From assembly GCA_029260115.1 (NCBI GenBank), contig JAJDDW010000014.1, forward strand, positions 10,069-74,068: a DNA stretch of 64,000 bases, read 5' to 3'. The notes below the pieces were generated by a model. That model saw nothing but the letters and a program-made list of their open reading frames with translations, searched no databases and was not told the origin of the DNA. A program made the position numbers and the translations under genes. Positions 8,420-64,000 of this stretch are shown here, piece by piece; the stretch's first letter is position 1; every line of letters starts with the position of its first letter. The DNA comes from Phycisphaerae bacterium. GTDB taxonomy: Bacteria; Planctomycetota; Phycisphaerae; UBA1845.

Positions 8420-10738
8420 TTAGCCGCCGTAGTAGCTGCGTAGAATTTCGCTTGCTTGGTTATTGGTCAGGTTCATCGCGCCGAGCGCTTCACTGGCAGC
8501 CGTGCGAATGACCAGATCGTCGCCTTGGGCAGCCATACTCACTAAGGCGTCAATCTGAGACTGTCCTAACATGTTGCCATGTCTCTTGGCGGATTCTGCA
8601 AGATCACGAAAAGCAGCTACGCGTAATGTCGTCGTGCGACCATCGTCCATCGCTACCGTGGCTATACCTTGCTGAGCAGTGTTGGATGGAGACAAGGCCA
8701 AGACAGACGCAGCTGAAATTTGTAGTGGCTCGTCGGCCGCTTCCAACGCAGCCAATAATGCGGGCTGAGCGACTGATAAATCTAAAACCGTTCTACCATT
8801 CAACGCCAAGCGATGTAGCGTCTCTACCGATTGCTTAGCTAGCGTCAGCGAAAGCGCATCGTCAATCATCGACCGACCCGTCTTCGCTTGTAGTCGTGAT
8901 AATGCATCCGCAATAGCCGCATCATCCGCATGGCTATTGACGGCCGCTACAAACGGATAACGGGCAGCTAAATCCTCAGCCATTAAATCATGCGTTGGCT
9001 TAGTTAGTAGTACAATCGGCGTCTTGGCGTACTGGAATTCGGATCGAAACTTGCCAATAACATTAGCTACGTCAGGTTCGGTTACATCGGTGGAAACTAG
9101 TAGCATGGCGATGGACTGCGTCTCTTCTCGAACGCGCGTCATAGCGGGATAAAAGCTAGCATCTGCAATCACCGTCCGGCCACCGCTGCGCATGACACTT
9201 GCGACGCGGTTGCGATTTTGCTGGTCGGTATCGAGCACCAATACCTGTTCCCGGCCACTAAGCGTCACAGCTTGCGCCAATACGGGTACGACGAACTGGG
9301 CATCAGCGAATGGCGTCGTGGGAAGCGCGGCACCTAAAGCTAAGGCCGCCCGAACGCGAACGAGTAAATCAGGAAAACGCAGCGCCTGAACCAAAGGTTG
9401 TTTGATATCTTCGCTGCCGACTAGCGAACTCTGCCCTGCCGTAATACGCAGCGCTTCGATCGCACCTAATGCCACAGCCGTATCGCTTTCTTTGACCGCC
9501 CGAGCTAATACAAGATGGGCATAGCGAGGGCCAGCCGCTTGAGAGAAATATCGGGCACGGGGATAAGCAGCAGGACGTGTGGGATCAGCATCGCCGACCT
9601 CACCAGGATCACCGCTTTCTACATTCATGCCCAATCGACCTTCACGGCGAATGTTCGAAGCTAGCCAAAGCGCGATGGCGGGTGCATGGTCATGCTCGAG
9701 AAGAAGAACCTCCTCGCAGCAACGCATAGCCATCACCTGGCCAAAAATTGAGGTAGAAACCACAGTCGCACGAAGCGATTGCTCCGCATCATCCCAATAC
9801 CAGACATTCGCCTCGTTTAGTCTTGGATCAGCACGAACAGCCGGGTCTTCGTGGTAGAACCACTCCGCGAGACCAAAGAACTGGTCCTTCGCATCACCGG
9901 AAATATTTCGACCGGAAATTGCCTTAATGCGCGAAACAGCCGCTGCAGCAGCGAATTTGCTCTCACTGGGCATATTTTCGTCTAGGACGAGCCGGTTCAA
10001 ATACGGCACCGCTTGAGGATATCCAATCTCGCCCAACGCACGGATCACATGGACCCGCACATCGTTATTGCCCATGCGTAAAGCCATGGTCAACGGACGC
10101 ACAGCGCCTTTACCCAACTTAGTCAACGACACAATAACGCGAGGCCAAAGCACTTTCTGTTGGCTATCGAGCAGCGTCGCGATAAGCGGCGGCACGGCGT
10201 ATTCACCAGATTCGATGAGACGCTGCTGGGCAAAAAATTCCTGCTGAGGATTACCGCCTAGAAGCGTGATGTTTTCACGTATGCGATCACTCTGCTTGCG
10301 TTCGTCGTGCTCGCCCTGTTGGATCAGATCAAGCACGCGTTTTGCACTATCGCCGATAGACGAGTTAGCAATGATAATCAGCAGCGTGTTAAGACTATCT
10401 TTGTCTCTACTAGCCGCTTCCATCACCTTGACCGGATCAAGTTCCGGGTGGGCCAATAACGCCTGTGCATAACCATCCGCAGTGTTAAATCGCCCCATAC
10501 GGGCATAGTGCAAGAAATCGGTAAATAGTGATTCGACTGTCGCCCCGGCCGGCACAGCTACCTTAGCAGCTTCATCCTGTTCGCCGTCTTGCGCAAAAGC
10601 TGGCGATGTGATGGCCAGCCCTGCAGATAGCAACATGCCTATTAGCAACATGCGCAAACATAGTCGATTTCGATTGTGTACTTGAAATGACGCCAAAAGC
10701 ATCGAGACCTCCCGTATTCTGGAGTATAAACTCATCAA
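8420..10738 (-). CDS. Secreted HEAT/PBS-lyase-like repeat protein
   Basis: 772 aa. An N-terminal signal peptide (…LSAGLAITSPAFAQD) is followed by repeated alpha-solenoid units (VRVHVIRALGEIGYPQAVPYLNRLV, LVRVRAALALGAAL). Confidence 0.6.
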   Translation of the reverse strand: MMSLYSRIREVSMLLASFQVHNRNRLCLRMLLIGMLLSAGLAITSPAFAQDGEQDEAAKVAVPAGATVESLFTDFLHYARMGRFNTADGYAQALLAHPELDPVKVMEAASRDKDSLNTLLIIIANSSIGDSAKRVLDLIQQGEHDERKQSDRIRENITLLGGNPQQEFFAQQRLIESGEYAVPPLIATLLDSQQKVLWPRVIVSLTKLGKGAVRPLTMALRMGNNDVRVHVIRALGEIGYPQAVPYLNRLVLDENMPSESKFAAAAAVSRIKAISGRNISGDAKDQFFGLAEWFYHEDPAVRADPRLNEANVWYWDDAEQSLRATVVSTSIFGQVMAMRCCEEVLLLEHDHAPAIALWLASNIRREGRLGMNVESGDPGEVGDADPTRPAAYPRARYFSQAAGPRYAHLVLARAVKESDTAVALGAIEALRITAGQSSLVGSEDIKQPLVQALRFPDLLVRVRAALALGAALPTTPFADAQFVVPVLAQAVTLSGREQVLVLDTDQQNRNRVASVMRSGGRTVIADASFYPAMTRVREETQSIAMLLVSTDVTEPDVANVIGKFRSEFQYAKTPIVLLTKPTHDLMAEDLAARYPFVAAVNSHADDAAIADALSRLQAKTGRSMIDDALSLTLAKQSVETLHRLALNGRTVLDLSVAQPALLAALEAADEPLQISAASVLALSPSNTAQQGIATVAMDDGRTTTLRVAAFRDLAESAKRHGNMLGQSQIDALVSMAAQGDDLVIRTAASEALGAMNLTNNQASEILRSYYGG

Positions 10739-11589
10739 TCAGTCCCCACAGGCATGAGCCCTATATAGCCGCAGGCACAGACGCCTGCTCCCCTATCTCA
10801 CAAGGGAATCAGTATAGGGTCAATGAATTCGCGGTCAACGTAATGCCAGGCAGCGGCCGAGTAGGCACAACTTTTCAGCCAATGACCACCGTTCAGGCAA
10901 TTGCTGTAGCCGTAATACGGGCTAAAAGCTCAATAGCTGGCACTACATCCCTATTTTTTTGCCCTCAACCCAGAAATGGATGGGCACATGGCAAGAAAAT
11001 CCGGGATCGTCCACAGACTAGATATTTTGCAAAATAGCTACACTACCAGCCGCCGTGATACCCAAGAGGATTGTGTTCACAACCTCAAAGAAGCCCGTTG
11101 TATCACAGCCAGCCACTTGAAATATAATCGCTCCAGTAGCTACGGCCTTGCAGAAGCGCAACATCGAAGACTTATTCACAGTTGAATCCTCCTACACCTA
11201 AACAAAGGTTTACCACTATCCATAACTCCGCTACACACGCCGACGGAGGAGGGTAAGTCTAGCCAGTCACGATGCAACGTCAATTTTGGCTCGAGAAAGC
11301 ATCTCAATTCGGAATCTGTGAGTTTCTTAGTAGGCTACCCACGATACACCGGCTCTACATGTGTGTCGATCGCACTGTCACCCCTCTTTTAGACCATTCA
11401 ACGTTCTACAAGATTGTAATTCGAAATGCTCATTTATCTGACCTTTGCAATAAGTTATTTGGAAGATCACGCCCCCATCACATTAACTTTGCACCACATC
11501 GTCATACTTCCGCTCATGAAATACGTGTCAGACATATCAGTATTGATAGTCACACCAAGTGATGAAATTTAGAAAGGATCAGACAAAAG

Positions 11590-12669
11590 ATGAATCAAAT
11601 GTACAATCGTCGAGCAAAAATTATTCTCCACGAACGCCGAGCCAACGGATTTACCTTGATCGAATTACTGGTGGTCATAGCCATCATTGCATTGCTCATC
11701 AGTATTCTTCTTCCCAGTCTTCAAAGCGCACGAGACCACGCCAAATCGGTAGTCTGCGCATCCAATTTGCATCATGTGGGCCTAGCCATGGCGAACTATT
11801 TGTACGTCTCCAACGGTGTGTACCCACTATCGTATGCCTATCCGGAGAACAAAGACGGACAGTGGTCGCCTCGAGGCCAAACCGCCAATCACGCATTCGG
11901 CTACACGCATTGGTCTTCGGAACTCTACGAAGACGGGCAAGTAGGCGATAAAGCATTCCAATGCCCAAACTACGAAAATGGTGGCGCGCCGCGTACCAAT
12001 CCGGGTCTTGACCAGTCGGAGTGGGAAGGCGGTCAAGTTGACCAAAACGGTGACGTTAAACCCAACCTCTTGCAAGACCGTCAAGCGGGTAGAATGGCGT
12101 ACACGGCTAACGCTGCCATTATACCTCGGAATAAATTGTCGACATTGCTGTCAGGTGGCAAGCGCGTCAACCAATTTGTAAGTGAAAACAGACTAACCAA
12201 TCCTGGTAAAACGATTCTGGTGACGGAGTTTCTAAATAACTGGAAGGCATTGGGCATCCAAACGGGTGCTGGCATTCTGAGTAAATCTCATCGGCCTATT
12301 AACCCGTTCTACCATGTGGGTTCTGGATACGACGAATACAAAGCATCCTTAAAAGCACCCGGCTTTATCTATGGCTTGCCTACTGACAGGGAGACTTATG
12401 GATTATTGCCTGAGCGACAAGTGCGGGAAAAGGTCAATATCCTTGACGCATCATCTGGTATTTCTCAGATCAATGCCATCGGACGTCATCATCCAACTGG
12501 GGACAGGGTCTACAAAAAAAAGTTTGGTGGCGTAGCCAATTACATGTTCGGCGACGGTCATGCGGAAACGCTGACAGTCGTCGAAACCATGCGTCGTCGC
12601 ATGTGGGGAGATCAGTATTACGGGCTAAACGGCGAGTCTACAGTACTTGACTTCGACAGAAAGCCCTAA
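11590..12669 (+). CDS. DUF1559 protein: prepilin-type N-terminal cleavage/methylation domain plus H-X9-DG motif (Planctomycete type)
   Basis: N-terminus [28 protein letters not shown] has the class III signal G/FTLIEL. The C-terminal region ends …[17 protein letters not shown] Shine-Dalgarno-like aaaggatca lies upstream. Confidence 0.85.
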
Positions 12670-43600: not shown

Positions 43601-45752
43601 CCTGCTCAGCCAGCGCTGACATCATCTCATACAATTGCCCGTCACGAGCAAGTTCGCCCCAACCAGCTATCGCGCCATCTGCAATGGACTGGGTCGGATG
43701 AACGACAATCGCGGCAGGACTAGCCCCTTGCTGCGTGCCAAGTCCCTCGCACGCCTCGCACCAACCCATGCGGCTGTTGAACGAAAAATGATGCGGCGAC
43801 AGTTCATCGTAACTCGTCCCACATTGATCGCAGGCGTGATGCTGGGAATAGCGAAACTCTGTCTCGTTGTTAGCGCGAGTCTTTGCAGTAGGCTTTTTAT
43901 CATCGACCAATTGAATCTGCATGACGCCGCTGCCCAAGGCTAACGCCTGCTCGATGCTATCGGTAATGCGAGAGGCCTGTGCCGCCCGAATAATGACGCG
44001 GTCCACGACGACTTCTACTCGATGGTCGCGCTTTTTATCAATGGCAATGGTTTCGCTAAGTTCATGTAGCGCGCCATCTACCCGCACCCGGCCGTAACCT
44101 TGACTGCGGAGTCGCTGAAAAAAGGATTCGTATGTTTCGCTACCCAGCGGTGCTATCGGCGACAATAACAAAGCCCGACGCCCGTTACCTAACTGCAAAA
44201 CTTTCTCAGCTATCTCATCACTAGATTGTGTACCGATGGGCACTTTACATTGTGGGCAAAACGCCTGGCCAATGCGGGTCCACAAAATGCGCATGTAATC
44301 GTAGACTTCTGTTATCGTGCCTACGGTAGATCGCGGTGATTTGCTGGTCGTTTTTCGCTCAATGCAGATAGACGGAGATAGGCCTTCCACATGATCTACG
44401 CGCGGCGGCTGAAGACGGCTCAAAAACTGTCTGGCGTACGAACTTAATGACTCGACATAGCGCCGCTGCCCCTCGGCATAAAGCGTATCAATCGAAAAAC
44501 TCGTTTTACCGCTACCACTAGGACCACTGCAAACCGTCGTTTTGTTTCGAGGAATCGTCACGTCTATATTTTTGAGATTGTGCTCACGCGCGCCAACTAC
44601 GCTAATGACCGTTTCTTTACGATGACGAGCCGCGGGCTTCAGCCCGCGCGGAGTTACGGTTTTTTTGCATGCTGCACTAACCTCAAGATTATCAAACATG
44701 TCTCGCAGCACCGCCCCCGTAGGCGACCGCTTCGACTTAGACACCCGCTTCGGCGTACCCTCAGCCACAATGCGCCCACCACCCGCCCCGCCTTCTGGAC
44801 CTAGGTCAATCAACCAATCCGCCGTCTTAATAACATCAAGGTTATGCTCGATCACCACAACGCTATTTCCTGATTCCACAAACCCGTGCAGCACCGCTAA
44901 GAGTTTCTTAATATCGTGAAAATGCAGGCCGGTAGTCGGCTCGTCAAGAATATACAAAGTCCGTCCTGTAGCCCGCTTCACTAACTCGCGAGCAAGTTTA
45001 ATACGCTGTGCCTCACCGCCGGAAAGCGTCGGCGAAGGCTGACCGAGCTTGAGATAATCCAACCCCACATCGTGCAGCGTCTGCAACATACGAGCAATTT
45101 TTGGCACATTGGCAAAGTGGGCCAAGGCCTCCTGCACATCCATCTCAAGCACGTCCGCAATGCTCTTACCTTTGAACTGGATTTGCAGCGTCTCGCGATT
45201 AAATCGATGCCCGCGACATATCTGGCATGTCACCCATATGTCAGCGAGAAAATCCATCTCCATGCGATGGCTGCCATTACCCTCACACGCTTCGCATCGA
45301 CCGCCACCAGCTTTCCCCGTGTGCACATTAAAGCTAAACCGTCCAGGCTTATAGCCTCGAACTTTGGCGTCAGTGAGCTTGGTATACAACGTCCGTATTT
45401 CATCGAATGCTTTGATATAAGTAGCCGGGTTAGAACGCGGCGTGCGACCGATGGGGCTTTGGTCTATAGCGATAACCTTATCCAAATGCGCTACGCCATC
45501 AATGTGGCTATGCAAACCAGGGCGAACTTTTATGGCTCCATTTAGATCACGGGCTAATGACTCCCACAAAATATCATTCACCAGCGAACTCTTACCCGAA
45601 CCCGACACGCCAGTCACACAAACAAACCGCTCAAGCGGAATGTCCACATCTATGTCGCGCAGGTTGTTATGTCGCGCCCCCACGACCGTTAGCCAAGGAC
45701 AATCCTCGCCGGGTGAACGAGGCTGAAGCTGAGTATTGCGCTTCGCCGTCAT
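40641..45752 (-). CDS. uvrA: UvrA C-terminal ABC module fused to a second complete UvrA unit and a ~335-aa duplicated C-terminal domain (1703 aa)
   Basis: aa 1-350 align to E. coli UvrA 606-940 (LTVVGARHNNL…VTGVSGSGKSSLVND…LSGGEAQRIKLAREL…ILDEPTTGLHFHDI). A second unit follows: N-module (VVGAREHNLKNIDVTIP…SGSGKTSFSIDTLYAEGQRRYVESLSSYARQF…LSGGESQRIQLASQIG…VLDEPTIGLH) then C-module (LTVYGAREHNLKEIDVSF…LSGGEAQRVKLAAEL…ILDEPTTGLHFDDL). A C-terminal domain with no recognisable family ends the protein. Confidence 0.85.
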   Translation of the reverse strand: MTAKRNTQLQPRSPGEDCPWLTVVGARHNNLRDIDVDIPLERFVCVTGVSGSGKSSLVNDILWESLARDLNGAIKVRPGLHSHIDGVAHLDKVIAIDQSPIGRTPRSNPATYIKAFDEIRTLYTKLTDAKVRGYKPGRFSFNVHTGKAGGGRCEACEGNGSHRMEMDFLADIWVTCQICRGHRFNRETLQIQFKGKSIADVLEMDVQEALAHFANVPKIARMLQTLHDVGLDYLKLGQPSPTLSGGEAQRIKLARELVKRATGRTLYILDEPTTGLHFHDIKKLLAVLHGFVESGNSVVVIEHNLDVIKTADWLIDLGPEGGAGGGRIVAEGTPKRVSKSKRSPTGAVLRDMFDNLEVSAACKKTVTPRGLKPAARHRKETVISVVGAREHNLKNIDVTIPRNKTTVCSGPSGSGKTSFSIDTLYAEGQRRYVESLSSYARQFLSRLQPPRVDHVEGLSPSICIERKTTSKSPRSTVGTITEVYDYMRILWTRIGQAFCPQCKVPIGTQSSDEIAEKVLQLGNGRRALLLSPIAPLGSETYESFFQRLRSQGYGRVRVDGALHELSETIAIDKKRDHRVEVVVDRVIIRAAQASRITDSIEQALALGSGVMQIQLVDDKKPTAKTRANNETEFRYSQHHACDQCGTSYDELSPHHFSFNSRMGWCEACEGLGTQQGASPAAIVVHPTQSIADGAIAGWGELARDGQLYEMMSALAEQVEFDLHCPWNKLSEKHKLAFLHGGDETWVTVTGPARKKKSRAAQAQYVGLRFRWRGFFPAIGRATRSSWQYRKRLEDLVTDVPCDACAGGRLHAAPAATQVNSVTIHEACLWPLSQTLVWFDKLKLPAVKRKIAGELLHEITSRLRFLVDVGLDYVHLHRTASTLSGGESQRIQLASQIGTGLTGVLYVLDEPTIGLHPRDNHRLTTALRRLRDLGNTLVIVEHDREMIEAADHVLDFGPGAGIFGGEVTASGTVAAIRKNRASLTGQYLSGKASIPVPTNRRPVSSPPRTDLAGMDDEGEIVDVVRSKEAQAWLTVYGAREHNLKEIDVSFPLGRLTCVTGVSGSGKSSLVSHVLYNTLATRLHRARLVAGGHDRITGIEHIDKVINVDQSPIGNSPTSNPGTYTGLFDTMRELFAKLPMSKIRGYRPSRFSFNRPGGRCEACEGMGQRCIEMHFLPDVWVECEDCQGARYVPETLEVKYRGKSIADVLEMRVSQALELFVTVPKIRRMLQTLDDVGLGYVHIGQPAPTLSGGEAQRVKLAAELGRPSTGKTLYILDEPTTGLHFDDLKKLLQVLHRLVDLGNTCICIEHNLDVIKTADWVIDLGLEAGEKGGSLVVEGPPQVIVENKQSHTAKALRPVLLAGPFEERTTHNAKDQANLELSKTEKIDLGQEVKMPWQRDGLAWHTVDHLDHNGLPSEWESALLVWLVNTIESLGHFAPTDWNHRTRIEIKSPDATPWFAHILTGSKDLIEVSLRVASATFTPAQLAKLKIKSLDERRDLPIYGQWDRARLRTPNNGWQEVKLYLRDFKDVSKTAFRAFLQKAIASYEGKLSAVQTNPTSDKPWMSLGMNWHLSQKSMSARQVASWKPDMLMALVGRIRSLQSDVEFTWASKTAGQFTVPGEPMPAGKIVTNMGKGLRVELRAASGQFTPTQVDRLGLDVDIKRHPAYDRLVFWVRSLTQIDTKQLRQVWRACRETDLSERLQSA

Positions 45753-61658: not shown

Positions 61659-62657
61659 ATGGCCAGACGTCGCAGACGAAAATCTCGATCGGGACTGACG
61701 TTGGTCGTCCTATTAGCGACCGCAGTTGGTGCTTGGTATTGGCTGTATCGTGTTGATGGCCAAGAAAACGTAATCGACAGCCCGCTTGTTCTCGCCCCTC
61801 AGCCCACACTTTCCACGAATCGTCCATCCAGAATGGAAATCAGTAGGCCCCAGCCTGAGGTGACGGAAAAAGGTGGGGTAACCCCGGCCGCAACGCCGGC
61901 AATGACCACGCCTCAGCGGACGCAGGCGCTCATCAATGCCGGCAAGCAGGCGCTGGCTAGCAAAGACTTGATCGCAGCCCGGACGCATTTTAGCGAAGCC
62001 CTGTCGCTTGGCGTTGGTGATGAAGACGAGAAGTTTTTGCGGGGCGAGCTGTCGCGATTGGGCAACGATACTATATTCTCGCCGCGCATTATTGATGGCG
62101 ATCCGCACGTTGGCCGGTATATCATTAAGACGGGTGATACGCTGGGTAAAATCGCGGGGCAATTCCAAGTTTCAGACGATCTGCTGGCCACGATTAACGG
62201 CATTAGAAATAAAAATCTCATTCGCGTGGGTCAAGCACTAAAAGTTGTGCATGGCCCATTTCATGCGGTGGTCAATAAGAAAACCTTCACGTTGGACCTT
62301 TTTGTAGGCTCAACTTTTACTAGGCAATATCGCATCGGTCTTGGCGAAGACGGCAGCACGCCTACTGGCGAGTGGCAGGTCGGCACGAAGCTAAAAAACC
62401 CGCAGTATTATCCGCCGCGCGGGGGGGACATTATCGCAGCGGATGACCCTGCGAATCCGCTTGGCGAACGGTGGATTGGGTTGATCGGCATTAGCGGAGA
62501 CGCGATGGGCCAACGTCGCTACGGCGTTCATGGCACCATTGAGCAAGACTCCATCGGCCGCAATGCATCGCTGGGATGTATTCGCATGTACAATAAGGAT
62601 GTCGAGCAACTATACGACTGCTTGGTATCGAAGCATTCTACTGTGACAGTGGAATGA
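61659..62657 (+). CDS. L,D-transpeptidase (YkuD domain) with LysM peptidoglycan-binding domain
   Basis: N-terminal TM helix, LysM (YIIKTGDTLGKIAGQFQVSDDLLATINGI…VGQALKV), and a YkuD catalytic motif HGT…SIGRNASLGCIRM. Confidence 0.85.
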   Translation: MARRRRRKSRSGLTLVVLLATAVGAWYWLYRVDGQENVIDSPLVLAPQPTLSTNRPSRMEISRPQPEVTEKGGVTPAATPAMTTPQRTQALINAGKQALASKDLIAARTHFSEALSLGVGDEDEKFLRGELSRLGNDTIFSPRIIDGDPHVGRYIIKTGDTLGKIAGQFQVSDDLLATINGIRNKNLIRVGQALKVVHGPFHAVVNKKTFTLDLFVGSTFTRQYRIGLGEDGSTPTGEWQVGTKLKNPQYYPPRGGDIIAADDPANPLGERWIGLIGISGDAMGQRRYGVHGTIEQDSIGRNASLGCIRMYNKDVEQLYDCLVSKHSTVTVE

Positions 62658-62698
62658 CACTCCAGTTGTCGCAAGCTTGCAATAACGAGTAACCAGCC

Positions 62699-63241
62699 AT
62701 GGCTTTTATCAAAATCATTGACGAATCGCATGCGGAGGGACGGCTTGATCGCATTTATAAAGCTTCGATCGAACGGGCCGGGCGCATTGCGAACATTCTC
62801 AAAGTGCAGAGCACGAACCCGGCTGCGTTGCAAGGATGCATGAATCTGTACGTGGCTTCGACGGTGCAGGATAACGAGCATCTTAGCCGAGCACAGCGGG
62901 AGATGCTTGCGACCGTGGTGTCTAAGACCAACGATTGTTATTACTGAACGCAGGCCCACGCACGTGACCTCCGGGTTGAGGTCCAAGACGATGAACTGGT
63001 TGAGCAGATCAAAACGGACTACCGCCAAGCGGCGCTATCTGAGGTCGATCGAGCTTTGTGCGATCACGCGGTCAAGCTCACAAGGACGCCATCCAAAATT
63101 TCCCAAGCTGACATCGACCATTTGCGCTCGTTGGGACTATCCGATGAAGCCATCGGCGACGCTACGCAGGTGATCTCGTTTTTCAATTATATCAACCGCA
63201 TCGCCGAGGGGCTGGGGGTTGATTTGGAAGAGGGGATGTAA
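62699..63241 (+). CDS. Peroxidase-related enzyme / AhpD-like (carboxymuconolactone decarboxylase family), candidate selenoprotein with in-frame TGA (Sec) at 62945-62947
   Basis: ORFs 62699-62947 and 63056-63241 share a frame and are separated only by one TGA. Reading through it gives a 180-aa protein matching the peroxidase-related-enzyme family end to end (IDESHAEGRL…ANILKVQS…REML…VVS…NDCYY[TGA]TQAH…AVKLTRTPS…VISFFNYINRIAEGLGVDLE). The TGA occupies the position of the second Cys of the family's C-x-x-C motif, giving C-x-x-U. Confidence 0.6.
62966..62983 (+). other. Candidate bacterial SECIS-like hairpin downstream of the in-frame TGA
   Basis: gacctc-cgggtt-gaggtc is a 6-bp GC-rich stem with a G/U-containing apical loop. 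The stem starts 18 nt after the TGA and the loop sits 25-30 nt downstream, within the usual bSECIS window. Confidence 0.3.
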
Positions 63242-63493
63242 GGAATGGCGGCTTCTGACCATTATGAATTCCTCGCTACCGCTCGACACGTACGATTATA
63301 TATAAATAGTTGATTTTCCCCCGCCGTCCTTCTATTCTGCATCTCGTTAGGGTGTTACGTTCAGGTATACGCACGGGCTTATTGCTGGCTACGCGTAGTA
63401 TTATAGATCGTAACTCCGCGCGGGCTGAAGCCCGCGGCTCGATTAGGAAAGTTGACTGCGGCATTAATGTCGCATTCCAAAAAGGTTTGAATC

Positions 63494-64000
63494 ATGACCG
63501 TAGCTACATCATCACAGTTTGAGGCTATTGCGGCTGTTGACCCGGAAATTTTTCCTGTGATGCAGGCTGAACAGCAGCGGCAGGAAAATACCATTGAACT
63601 GATCGCATCGGAGAATCATGTCTCCAAAGCGGTGCTTGAAGCGCTGGGTTCGGTGTTTACCAATAAGTATGCCGAAGGGTACCCGGGTAAGCGCTACTAC
63701 GGTGGCTGCGAAAATATGGACATCGTGGAAGACCTCGCGCGAAATCGCGTGAAGCAGCTCTTTGGTTGTGACCATGCCAATGTACAACCTCATTCCGGTA
63801 GTCAGGCGAACGCGGCTGTCTACTTAGCTGCCTTGGTTCCGGGTGACACGATCTTGTCGCTCGATCTGGCACACGGTGGCCATCTTTCGCACGGACTCAA
63901 AGTAAACATGAGCGGGCTGCTTTATAACATTGTTTCGTATGGCGTGGACCGCGAAACGGAGCAGTTTGATTTTTCAAAAATTCGCAAGCTGGCGCTGGAA
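63494..64000 (+). CDS. glyA: Serine hydroxymethyltransferase, N-terminal part (truncated by window end)
   Basis: [20 protein letters not shown]…[39 protein letters not shown]…HSGSQAN is canonical SHMT sequence. The gene is absent from the ORF track because it has no stop inside the window. Confidence 0.9.

What the first reader, a model, noticed from the sequence alone, without database searches (positions are those of the whole stretch)
62699..63241. AhpD/peroxidase-related enzyme gene interrupted by a single TGA exactly at the redox Cys position (C-x-x-U): likely selenocysteine recoding, not a pseudogene
Two same-frame ORFs (62699-62947, 63056-63241) together form a complete ~180-aa peroxidase-related/AhpD-like protein. 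The only interruption is the TGA at 62945-62947. It falls where the family normally has the second cysteine of its C-x-x-C(H) active-site motif, so the read-through product has NDCYY-U-TQAH, a C-x-x-U redox motif typical of bacterial selenoproteins. A GC-rich stem-loop (62966-62983) with a GGUU-containing apical loop sits at the right distance for a bacterial SECIS element. Gene callers would annotate this as two fragments or a pseudogene. No selA/selB/selD/selC is in this window, so the machinery must be elsewhere if it exists.
Basis: partly seen in the sequence, partly recalled or inferred. Interest (0 to 1): 0.8.

Follow-up and report, generated by a model that had tools for sequence, protein, structure and literature searches.

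The report
Selenocysteine-encoding AhpD-like peroxidase-related gene
The apparent broken gene is an intact gene for a small antioxidant-type enzyme whose internal TGA almost certainly encodes selenocysteine at the active site, but it belongs to a selenoprotein family described since 2005, so it is a correct annotation catch rather than a discovery.

Summary
Window 62699-63241 (+) is one reading frame of 180 codons with a single in-frame TGA at 62945-62947. Read through, the protein scores 154 bits against NCBIfam TIGR01926 (peroxidase-related enzyme; cutoff 81.8). The TGA falls on the second Cys of the AhpD C-x-x-C-x3-H motif.

Evidence that the TGA is decoded:
- 34 of 36 related genome loci, from at least six phyla, carry TGA at this codon with an open, conserved frame beyond it.
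- Divergence from the closest relative is synonymous-biased to the same degree on both sides of the TGA.
- Cys-form homologs exist.
- The hairpin at 62966-62983 meets all four published bacterial SECIS criteria. It is conserved with compensatory changes in the TGA forms and absent from distant Cys forms.
- TGA is an ordinary stop elsewhere in the window.

Pseudogene, code reassignment and sequencing error are therefore rejected. The Sec machinery of the source genome could not be checked, because the genome is not identifiable with these tools.

The family (AhpD-like, COG2128/TIGR01926, CxxU) has been a published selenoprotein family since 2005 and was among the most abundant in ocean metagenomes. 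Novelty is therefore low.

The parts
62699..63241 (+). Complete coding sequence of the AhpD-like (TIGR01926) selenoprotein, 180 aa, ATG start, TAA stop, one internal UGA
   Evidence: TIGR01926 scores 154.2 bits (cutoff 81.8) over residues 3-174. PDB 6k40 AhpD matches at E = 1.8e-28 over residues 2-173.
62945..62947 (+). UGA codon 83, inferred selenocysteine, at the position of the second Cys of C-x-x-C
   Evidence: TGA sits at the same column in L001-L034 and L037. The column is Cys in 36 protein homologs. It aligns to the second Cys of the CxxC in 6k40, 2oyo and 2pfx.
62900..62959 (+). Active-site helix-turn-helix segment holding the proton-relay residues E68 (62900-62902), C80 (62936-62938), Y82, U83 and H87 (62957-62959)
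   Evidence: The spacing Glu-12-Cys-3-Cys-4-His is identical to Glu36/Cys48/Tyr50/Cys51/His55 of PA0269 and Glu118/Cys130/His132/Cys133/His137 of M. tuberculosis AhpD (PMC3141380). This is read directly from the translation.
62966..62983 (+). Inferred bacterial SECIS hairpin within the coding sequence (codons D90-V95): 6-bp stem, 6-nt apical loop CGGGUU at 62972-62977, 24 nt after the UGA
   Evidence: all four bSECIS criteria of PMC13188914 are met (-7.8 kcal/mol); 90.2% of cells paired in 36 TGA-form sequences against 22-45% for slid controls, with 3 of 7 pairs showing compensatory changes; the hairpin is absent from distant Cys forms.

Best explanation
Window 62699-63241 is an intact gene for a 180-residue AhpD-like / peroxidase-related enzyme (NCBIfam TIGR01926, COG2128, carboxymuconolactone-decarboxylase fold). 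Codon 83, UGA, is most likely recoded to selenocysteine. During translation the hairpin at 62966-62983, 24 nt downstream of the UGA and inside the coding sequence, would act as a bacterial SECIS element. It would recruit SelB-GTP-Sec-tRNA(Sec) to the ribosome so that Sec is inserted instead of termination (inferred, not shown). The product carries a C80-Y-Y-U83-x3-H87 redox centre with E68 as the relay residue. Sec occupies the position of the exposed, attacking cysteine of AhpD (Cys133 in M. tuberculosis). That residue forms the mixed disulfide with the peroxiredoxin partner, and C80 would then resolve a selenenylsulfide. The enzyme is therefore expected to be a thiol/selenol oxidoreductase in peroxide defence. 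Its physiological partner is unknown and is not encoded next to it.
For: Shown by tools:
- A single in-frame TGA.
- Family membership above the curated cutoff, a Pfam CMD match, and full-length matches to solved AhpD-like structures with the CxxC aligned.
- TGA at the same codon in 34 of 36 species-representative genome loci from Planctomycetota, Phycisphaerae, Myxococcota, Bdellovibrionales, Acidobacteriota, Chloroflexota, Actinomycetota and Cellvibrionaceae. These share 43-89% protein identity and have no other stops.
- 36 protein homologs have Cys at the column. 37 have 'W', which is TGA in the DNA of the one case checked. 44 database entries are fragments that start or end at the column.
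- Against L001, synonymous vs non-synonymous codon changes are 34/9 downstream and 29/9 upstream of the TGA. Differences by codon position are 10/3/34 and 6/5/33.
- Synteny (LysM-YkuD, this gene, SHMT) is shared with L001.
- The hairpin meets the published bSECIS constraints (criteria from the PMC13188914 Fig. 2 legend).
- Covariation: 18 cells carry double changes, and 0 of 500 shuffles reach the observed score.
- Distant Cys forms lack the hairpin.
- TGA terminates 8 of 41 long ORFs in the window, including an ATGA stop/start overlap at 45749-45752.

From the literature:
- AhpD-like CxxU selenoproteins are an established family (PMC1088965, PMC2398784, PMC13188914).
- Some Planctomycetes carry complete Sec machinery (PMC4807772).
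- Cys133 of MtAhpD is the residue that reacts with AhpC (PMC6626918).
Against: - No selA, selB, selD or tRNA-Sec is present in the window or in the 10-kb flanks of the related loci. The source genome could not be identified, so the machinery is unverified.
- No Rfam family matches the hairpin.
- The local fold is no more stable than shuffled sequence, and the bare hairpin only just passes the -7.5 kcal/mol criterion.
- The hairpin also encodes a conserved peptide, D-L/F-R-x-E-V. Part of its conservation could be protein-level, and the compensatory changes represent few independent events.
- Two close Cys forms also keep the hairpin.
- No selenium incorporation or enzyme activity has been measured.
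Confidence: 0.9

Rival explanations
1. Pseudogene: a nonsense mutation inactivated an ancestral Cys-form gene and the 3' part is decaying.
For: Standard gene callers split the gene. One related locus, L036, is visibly frameshifted.
Against: The same TGA is present in 34 diverged genomes with an intact frame. Purifying selection downstream equals that upstream. Synteny is conserved.
Confidence: 0.02
2. UGA is decoded as a standard amino acid (Trp, Gly or Cys), through a reassigned genetic code or near-cognate read-through without Sec machinery.
For: Metagenome gene callers translated 37 homologs with W at this position. The Sec machinery was not verified for this genome.
Against: TGA is a normal stop for 8 of 41 long ORFs in the window, including an ATGA overlap. 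The TGA is confined to one catalytic column where homologs have Cys, never Trp from TGG. It occurs in many phyla that use the standard code. A SECIS-type hairpin accompanies it.
Confidence: 0.04
3. A genuinely split gene giving two polypeptides (residues 1-82 and a C-terminal piece restarting at TTG 63056), or a sequencing or assembly error at the TGA.
For: A TTG start exists in frame at 63056.
Against: The 36 codons between the TGA and the TTG (62948-63055) are conserved as protein in all relatives and contain H87 of the active site. Other loci have no common restart codon. The identical TGA in 35 independent assemblies excludes an error.
Confidence: 0.02

Closest known systems
AhpD-like selenoprotein family ('AhpD-like 1', COG2128 / NCBIfam TIGR01926, CxxU motif) of Zhang, Fomenko & Gladyshev 2005 and the GOS selenoproteome 2008
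   Same: Same NCBIfam model, scored above its cutoff. Same CxxU motif with Sec at the second Cys position. The SECIS-type hairpin lies immediately downstream inside the ORF. Cys homologs are widespread. The family had 27 sequences in the Sargasso Sea data and 299 in GOS (PMC1088965, PMC2398784), and is listed as TIGR01926/CxxU in PMC13188914.
   Different: Nothing substantive. This copy comes from a Planctomycetota-like genome, with closest loci L001 and L002 at 87-89% identity. Earlier genome surveys reported the family in very few sequenced genomes, one of them the Firmicute Alkaliphilus metalliredigenes (PMC1794560).
Cys-form AhpD-like / peroxidase-related proteins with solved structures (6k40, named 'Alkyl hydroperoxide reductase AhpD' in the PDB; 2oyo, 2pfx, 3c1l, 2prr)
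   Same: Full-length sequence similarity (E = 1e-28 to 1e-18) and the same CxxCxxxH motif position. The proton-relay residues have identical spacing (PMC3141380).
   Different: These have Cys rather than Sec at the second position, and no UGA or SECIS.
Mycobacterium tuberculosis AhpD (TIGR00777), the biochemically characterised AhpC reductant
   Same: The same Glu/Cys/Cys/His proton-relay active site. The residue replaced by Sec corresponds to Cys133, which attacks AhpC Cys61 (PMC6626918).
   Different: The window protein scores only 17 bits against TIGR00777 (cutoff 192). According to PMC3141380 the position of the catalytic helices in the chain differs between MtAhpD and AhpD-like proteins. 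No ahpC is adjacent here.
NF041238 AhpD_rel_CFYUT (seleno)protein and NF053654 YciW-related (seleno)protein
   Same: These are also AhpD-related families in which NCBI curates Sec at a C-x-x-U site.
   Different: Both score below their curated cutoffs: 76 vs 175 bits and 23 vs 310 bits. NF041238 is a 357-position profile of which only the C-terminal half aligns.

Membership tests
AhpD-like selenoprotein (TIGR01926 / COG2128, CxxU) | The sequence matches the family model above its curated cutoff | tested here: met
   154.2 bits against a cutoff of 81.8, residues 3-174 on profile positions 2-173 of 178.
AhpD-like selenoprotein (TIGR01926 / COG2128, CxxU) | The in-frame UGA aligns with the second Cys of the CxxC(xxxH) motif, and Cys-containing homologs exist | tested here: met
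   the column is Cys in 36 homologs and in the PDB chains 6k40, 2oyo and 2pfx. It is TGA in 35 related DNA sequences.
AhpD-like selenoprotein (TIGR01926 / COG2128, CxxU) | The ORF continues beyond the UGA and is under coding constraint | tested here: met
   34 synonymous and 9 non-synonymous codon changes downstream against L001, with third-position bias 10/3/34, equal to the upstream pattern.
AhpD-like selenoprotein (TIGR01926 / COG2128, CxxU) | A bacterial SECIS downstream of the UGA: loop of 3-9 nt, stem of 4-16 bp, G in the first two loop positions, 16-37 nt spacing, MFE <= -7.5 kcal/mol | tested here: met
   6-bp stem, loop CGGGUU, 24-nt spacing, -7.8 kcal/mol. One search shows covariation and one search gives the Cys-form control. 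No Rfam model applies.
AhpD-like selenoprotein (TIGR01926 / COG2128, CxxU) | The host genome encodes selA, selB, selD and tRNA-Sec | not testable with these tools
   None is present in the window or the locus flanks. The only support is at phylum level (PMC4807772).
AhpD-like selenoprotein (TIGR01926 / COG2128, CxxU) | Selenium is actually incorporated at residue 83 | not testable with these tools
   This needs 75Se labelling or mass spectrometry.
AhpD-family thiol peroxidase/reductase active site | Proton-relay residues Glu, Cys, Cys and His with conserved spacing | tested here: met
   E68, C80, U83 and H87 have spacing 12/3/4, identical to PA0269 and MtAhpD (translation; PMC3141380).
Canonical AhpD (TIGR00777) | Match above the curated cutoff | tested here: not met
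   17.3 bits against a cutoff of 191.95.
NF041238 AhpD_rel_CFYUT (seleno)protein | Match above the curated cutoff and the full 357-position architecture | tested here: not met
   76 bits against a cutoff of 175. Only profile positions 151-338 align.

The most novel reading that the evidence does not exclude
The source organism might lack the canonical SelA/SelB/tRNA-Sec system yet still maintain this UGA under selection. That would imply a non-canonical way of decoding UGA at a SECIS-like hairpin, such as Cys or another residue inserted by hairpin-stimulated read-through. A milder version is that the nearly all-Sec 'ISFFNYINR' subclade, spread across six or more phyla, marks extensive horizontal transfer of a SECIS-bearing gene, with the hairpin persisting in recent Cys revertants.
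Probability: 0.03. Interest if true: 0.7.

Novelty: already known. Interest (0 to 1): 0.2.

Why it matters
The main value is for annotation. Standard gene callers split this gene, and they did the same to dozens of homologs in public databases. There the homologs appear as roughly 100-aa fragments, or as full-length proteins with a false Trp from code-4 translation. Recognising the gene as one Sec-containing ORF implies that the organism uses selenium and has a Sec-decoding system elsewhere in its genome. It does not open a new biological question, because the family, its motif and its SECIS type are already published.

Tried and rejected
- **Rfam.** A scan of the whole window at gathering threshold and a permissive scan of 62900-63060 gave no hits. 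This is uninformative, since no Rfam family matched.
- **Single-sequence folding.** The 60-nt fold gave z = 0.33, so thermodynamics alone cannot support the SECIS. Comparative analysis was used instead.
- **tRNA-Sec.** ARAGORN on the window and 37 loci found only ordinary tRNAs and one tmRNA.
- **Sec machinery.** tblastn with E. coli SelA, SelB and SelD against the window and all loci gave one weak hit (25% identity over 136 aa, E = 1.6e-5) to the N-terminal region of SelB, in L006.
- **Source genome.** An exact-protein lookup of the upstream LysM-YkuD protein was not on record. The best protein-database match to the gene is only 82% identical, so the genome is not in the collection.
- **Other selenoprotein genes in the window.** Of the TGA sites with at least 60 open codons on each side, no other was a credible candidate.
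- **Conserved redox partner.** Clustering of neighbouring ORFs in 36 loci found only within-clade synteny and no peroxiredoxin or other recurrent partner.
- **Promoter and terminator scan around the gene.** Counts were at shuffle level.
- **Rejected readings.** Pseudogene, code 4/25 reassignment, split gene and sequencing error were all considered and rejected (see the rival explanations).

Full report
**Observation**

Window 62699-63241 (+) translates as 180 codons with one internal stop, the TGA at 62945-62947, in the context ...VVSKTNDCYY*TQAHARDLRVEV..., and ends at TAA 63239-63241. A mechanical ORF list splits it into 62699-62947 (82 aa) and 63056-63241 (61 aa, TTG start) in the same frame. 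The stem-loop GACCUC-CGGGUU-GAGGUC sits at 62966-62983.

The raw pattern alone is not significant. Nineteen TGAs in the window have at least 60 open codons on both sides. The 60 nt after the TGA fold no better than shuffled sequence (z = 0.33). The case rests on homology and comparison.

**What the protein is**

With the TGA read as Cys, the product matches NCBIfam TIGR01926 'peroxidase-related enzyme' at 154.2 bits (cutoff 81.8) over almost its whole length. It also matches Pfam CMD, PF02627. It falls below the cutoffs for canonical AhpD (TIGR00777) and for two other AhpD-related '(seleno)protein' models, NF041238 and NF053654.

Against the PDB it aligns end to end with AhpD-like structures: 6k40 at E = 1.8e-28, then 2oyo, 2pfx, 3c1l and 2prr. 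Its C-Y-Y-[TGA] lies on their C-x-x-C.

The residues E68, C80, Y82, U83 and H87 have exactly the spacing of the proton-relay set described for PA0269 (Glu36, Cys48, Tyr50, Cys51, His55) and for M. tuberculosis AhpD (Glu118, Cys130, His132, Cys133, His137) (PMC3141380). The TGA therefore occupies the position of Cys133. That is the exposed cysteine which forms the cross-link with AhpC Cys61 (PMC6626918, citing Bryk 2002 and Koshkin 2004).

**Comparative evidence that the UGA is decoded**

A scan of one genome per species returned 36 loci. In 34 of them (L001-L034) the aligned codon is TGA, within C-x-[Y/F]-TGA, and the frame is otherwise open and conserved to the normal C-terminus, including the near-invariant ISFFNYINR motif. 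These loci span Planctomycetota, Phycisphaerae, Myxococcota, Bdellovibrionales, Acidobacteriota, Chloroflexota, Actinomycetota and a Cellvibrionaceae MAG, at 43-89% protein identity.

The search patterns favour this subclade, so 34 of 36 is not a family-wide frequency.

Among 118 protein-database homologs, the column splits as follows:
- 36 have Cys.
- 37 have 'W'.
- 44 are fragments that begin just after or end just before the column.

For P0001, the one 'W' form checked, the DNA has TGA. The 'W' in these entries therefore most likely reflects translation with genetic code 4 by metagenome gene callers.

Against the closest relative, L001 (89% identity, same LysM-YkuD / gene / SHMT synteny), the counts on each side of the TGA are:

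| Region | Synonymous codon changes | Non-synonymous codon changes | Differences by codon position |
|---|---|---|---|
| Upstream of TGA | 29 | 9 | 6/5/33 |
| Downstream of TGA | 34 | 9 | 10/3/34 |

The 3' part is therefore translated in this frame. That excludes a pseudogene, a split gene that restarts at 63056, and a sequencing error.

**Not a reassigned code**

TGA ends 8 of the 41 long ORFs in the window. These include the upstream YkuD gene and an ATGA stop/start overlap at 45749-45752. The internal TGA is confined to a catalytic Cys column, in many phyla that use the standard code.

**The SECIS candidate**

The published bacterial SECIS model requires a 3-9 nt apical loop on a 4-16 bp stem, a G in the first two loop positions (usually followed by G or U), 16-37 nt between the UGA and the loop, and MFE <= -7.5 kcal/mol (PMC13188914, Fig. 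2 legend). The window hairpin has a 6-bp stem, the loop CGGGUU, 24-nt spacing and -7.8 kcal/mol. All four criteria are met, the last only narrowly.

The same design, a 6-7 bp stem with loop CG[G/U]G.. at 24 nt, recurs in most of the 36 TGA-form sequences. Across their ungapped alignment (A1):
- 90.2% of stem cells form standard pairs, against 22-45% when the 3' partners are slid by 1-3 columns.
- Three of the seven pairs show compensatory double changes (C-G to U-A), in 18 cells.
- No shuffle out of 500 reaches the observed covariation score.

Some of these changes link a synonymous change on one arm to an amino-acid change on the other. Examples are Leu CUC to Phe UUC with Glu GAG to GAA, and Asp GAC to GAU with Val GUC to Ile AUC. 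That pattern is expected if the RNA structure constrains the peptide D-L/F-R-x-E-V.

As a control, five more distant non-Sec sequences lack a comparable hairpin at this place (best -3.6 kcal/mol, or none): four Cys forms (L040, L045, L046, L047) and L035, which has Val at the column. The two Cys forms closest to the Sec clade (L039 and L044) keep one, at -8.2 and -7.8 kcal/mol. This is compatible with recent Sec-to-Cys conversion.

Caveats:
- The hairpin overlaps a conserved peptide.
- The independent compensatory events are few.
- The shuffle control is not a probability.
- No Rfam family matched the hairpin.

**What could not be shown**

No tRNA-Sec, selA, selB or selD lies in the window or in the flanks of the related loci. 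The source genome could not be identified. The neighbouring protein is not on record, and the best database match to the gene itself is 82% identical.

The only support is that complete Sec-insertion gene sets are documented in several Planctomycetes (PMC4807772).

No redox partner is encoded nearby, and none recurs next to the gene across phyla.

**Mechanism**

Shown: an intact, selected ORF with UGA at the attacking-Cys position, and a conserved downstream hairpin of SECIS type.

Inferred: SelB-GTP-Sec-tRNA(Sec) binds the hairpin as the ribosome reaches the UGA and inserts Sec. The resulting C80-x-x-U83 centre, activated through H87, a water molecule and E68, attacks an oxidised peroxiredoxin (or a peroxide directly). 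C80 then resolves the selenenylsulfide. The oxidised protein is re-reduced by an unidentified thiol system.

**Comparison with what is known, and novelty**

'AhpD-like protein' (COG2128, CxxU) was reported as a new selenoprotein family with 27 members in the Sargasso Sea data, including a predicted SECIS (PMC1088965). It was the fourth most abundant prokaryotic selenoprotein family in GOS, with 299 Sec forms and 902 Cys homologs (PMC2398784). It was found in two sequenced bacterial genomes in 2006 (PMC1794560). A 2026 review lists it as 'AhpD-like protein, TIGR01926, CxxU' (PMC13188914).

The window gene meets every testable defining feature of that family. It is an ordinary member in a Planctomycetota-like genome. 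Its value is in correcting annotation and in implying selenium use by the organism.

**Verdict**

Confidence that it is a Sec-encoding AhpD-like gene is about 0.9. Novelty is 'already known'. Interest is 0.2.

Noticed in passing
L039:3244-3291 and L044 (Cys-form homologs P0023 and P0020): The two Cys-form genes closest to the Sec clade (TGC at the column, CYYCT..H..DF) still carry a SECIS-like hairpin at the same 24-nt offset (-8.2 and -7.8 kcal/mol). More distant Cys forms do not. This may be a 'fossil' SECIS left after a recent Sec-to-Cys conversion.
   Followed up: partly
Protein database entries P0001-P0019, P0021, P0022, P0024, P0025, P0027-P0030 and others; DNA checked in L037:3162-3164 and L038:1851-1853: 37 public homologs are recorded as full-length proteins with Trp at the Sec position. 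For P0001, the one checked, the DNA has TGA, so the 'W' in these entries is most likely an artefact of code-4 translation by metagenome gene callers. Another 44 entries are fragments that start or end at the TGA.
   Followed up: partly
L036:10001-10531 and L034 (3' end of the gene): The L036 copy (Acidobacteriota chromosome OY760074.1) has multiple frame disruptions. The L034 copy loses the conserved C-terminus through a frameshift. These are either true pseudogenes or indel errors of long-read assemblies.
   Followed up: no
window 63419-63436: An all-G/C 7-bp hairpin with a UGAA tetraloop (CGCGGGC-TGAA-GCCCGCG) lies in the 252-bp spacer between the AhpD-like gene and glyA. It has no following T-run and no Rfam hit. 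It could be a terminator or a regulatory element.
   Followed up: no
window 62528-63028 (-): A 166-aa antisense ORF overlaps the gene. Similar antisense ORFs recur in 12 other loci. They look like shadow ORFs of the conserved sense frame rather than genes.
   Followed up: partly
window 61659-62657 and 63494-64000; L001:8960-9958 and 10673-12082: The gene is flanked by a LysM + YkuD L,D-transpeptidase and by serine hydroxymethyltransferase (glyA). This order is conserved in the closest Planctomycetota MAG, L001. The upstream LysM-YkuD neighbour also recurs in L002-L004 and L006-L008. No redox gene is adjacent.
   Followed up: yes
L033 (Candidatus Actinomarina sp. AG-447-I21 single-cell genome), TGA at 10244: A TGA-form homolog is present in a streamlined marine actinobacterium. 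Its hairpin is much weaker (-2.7 kcal/mol, loop GGUC), which suggests a divergent SECIS.
   Followed up: no
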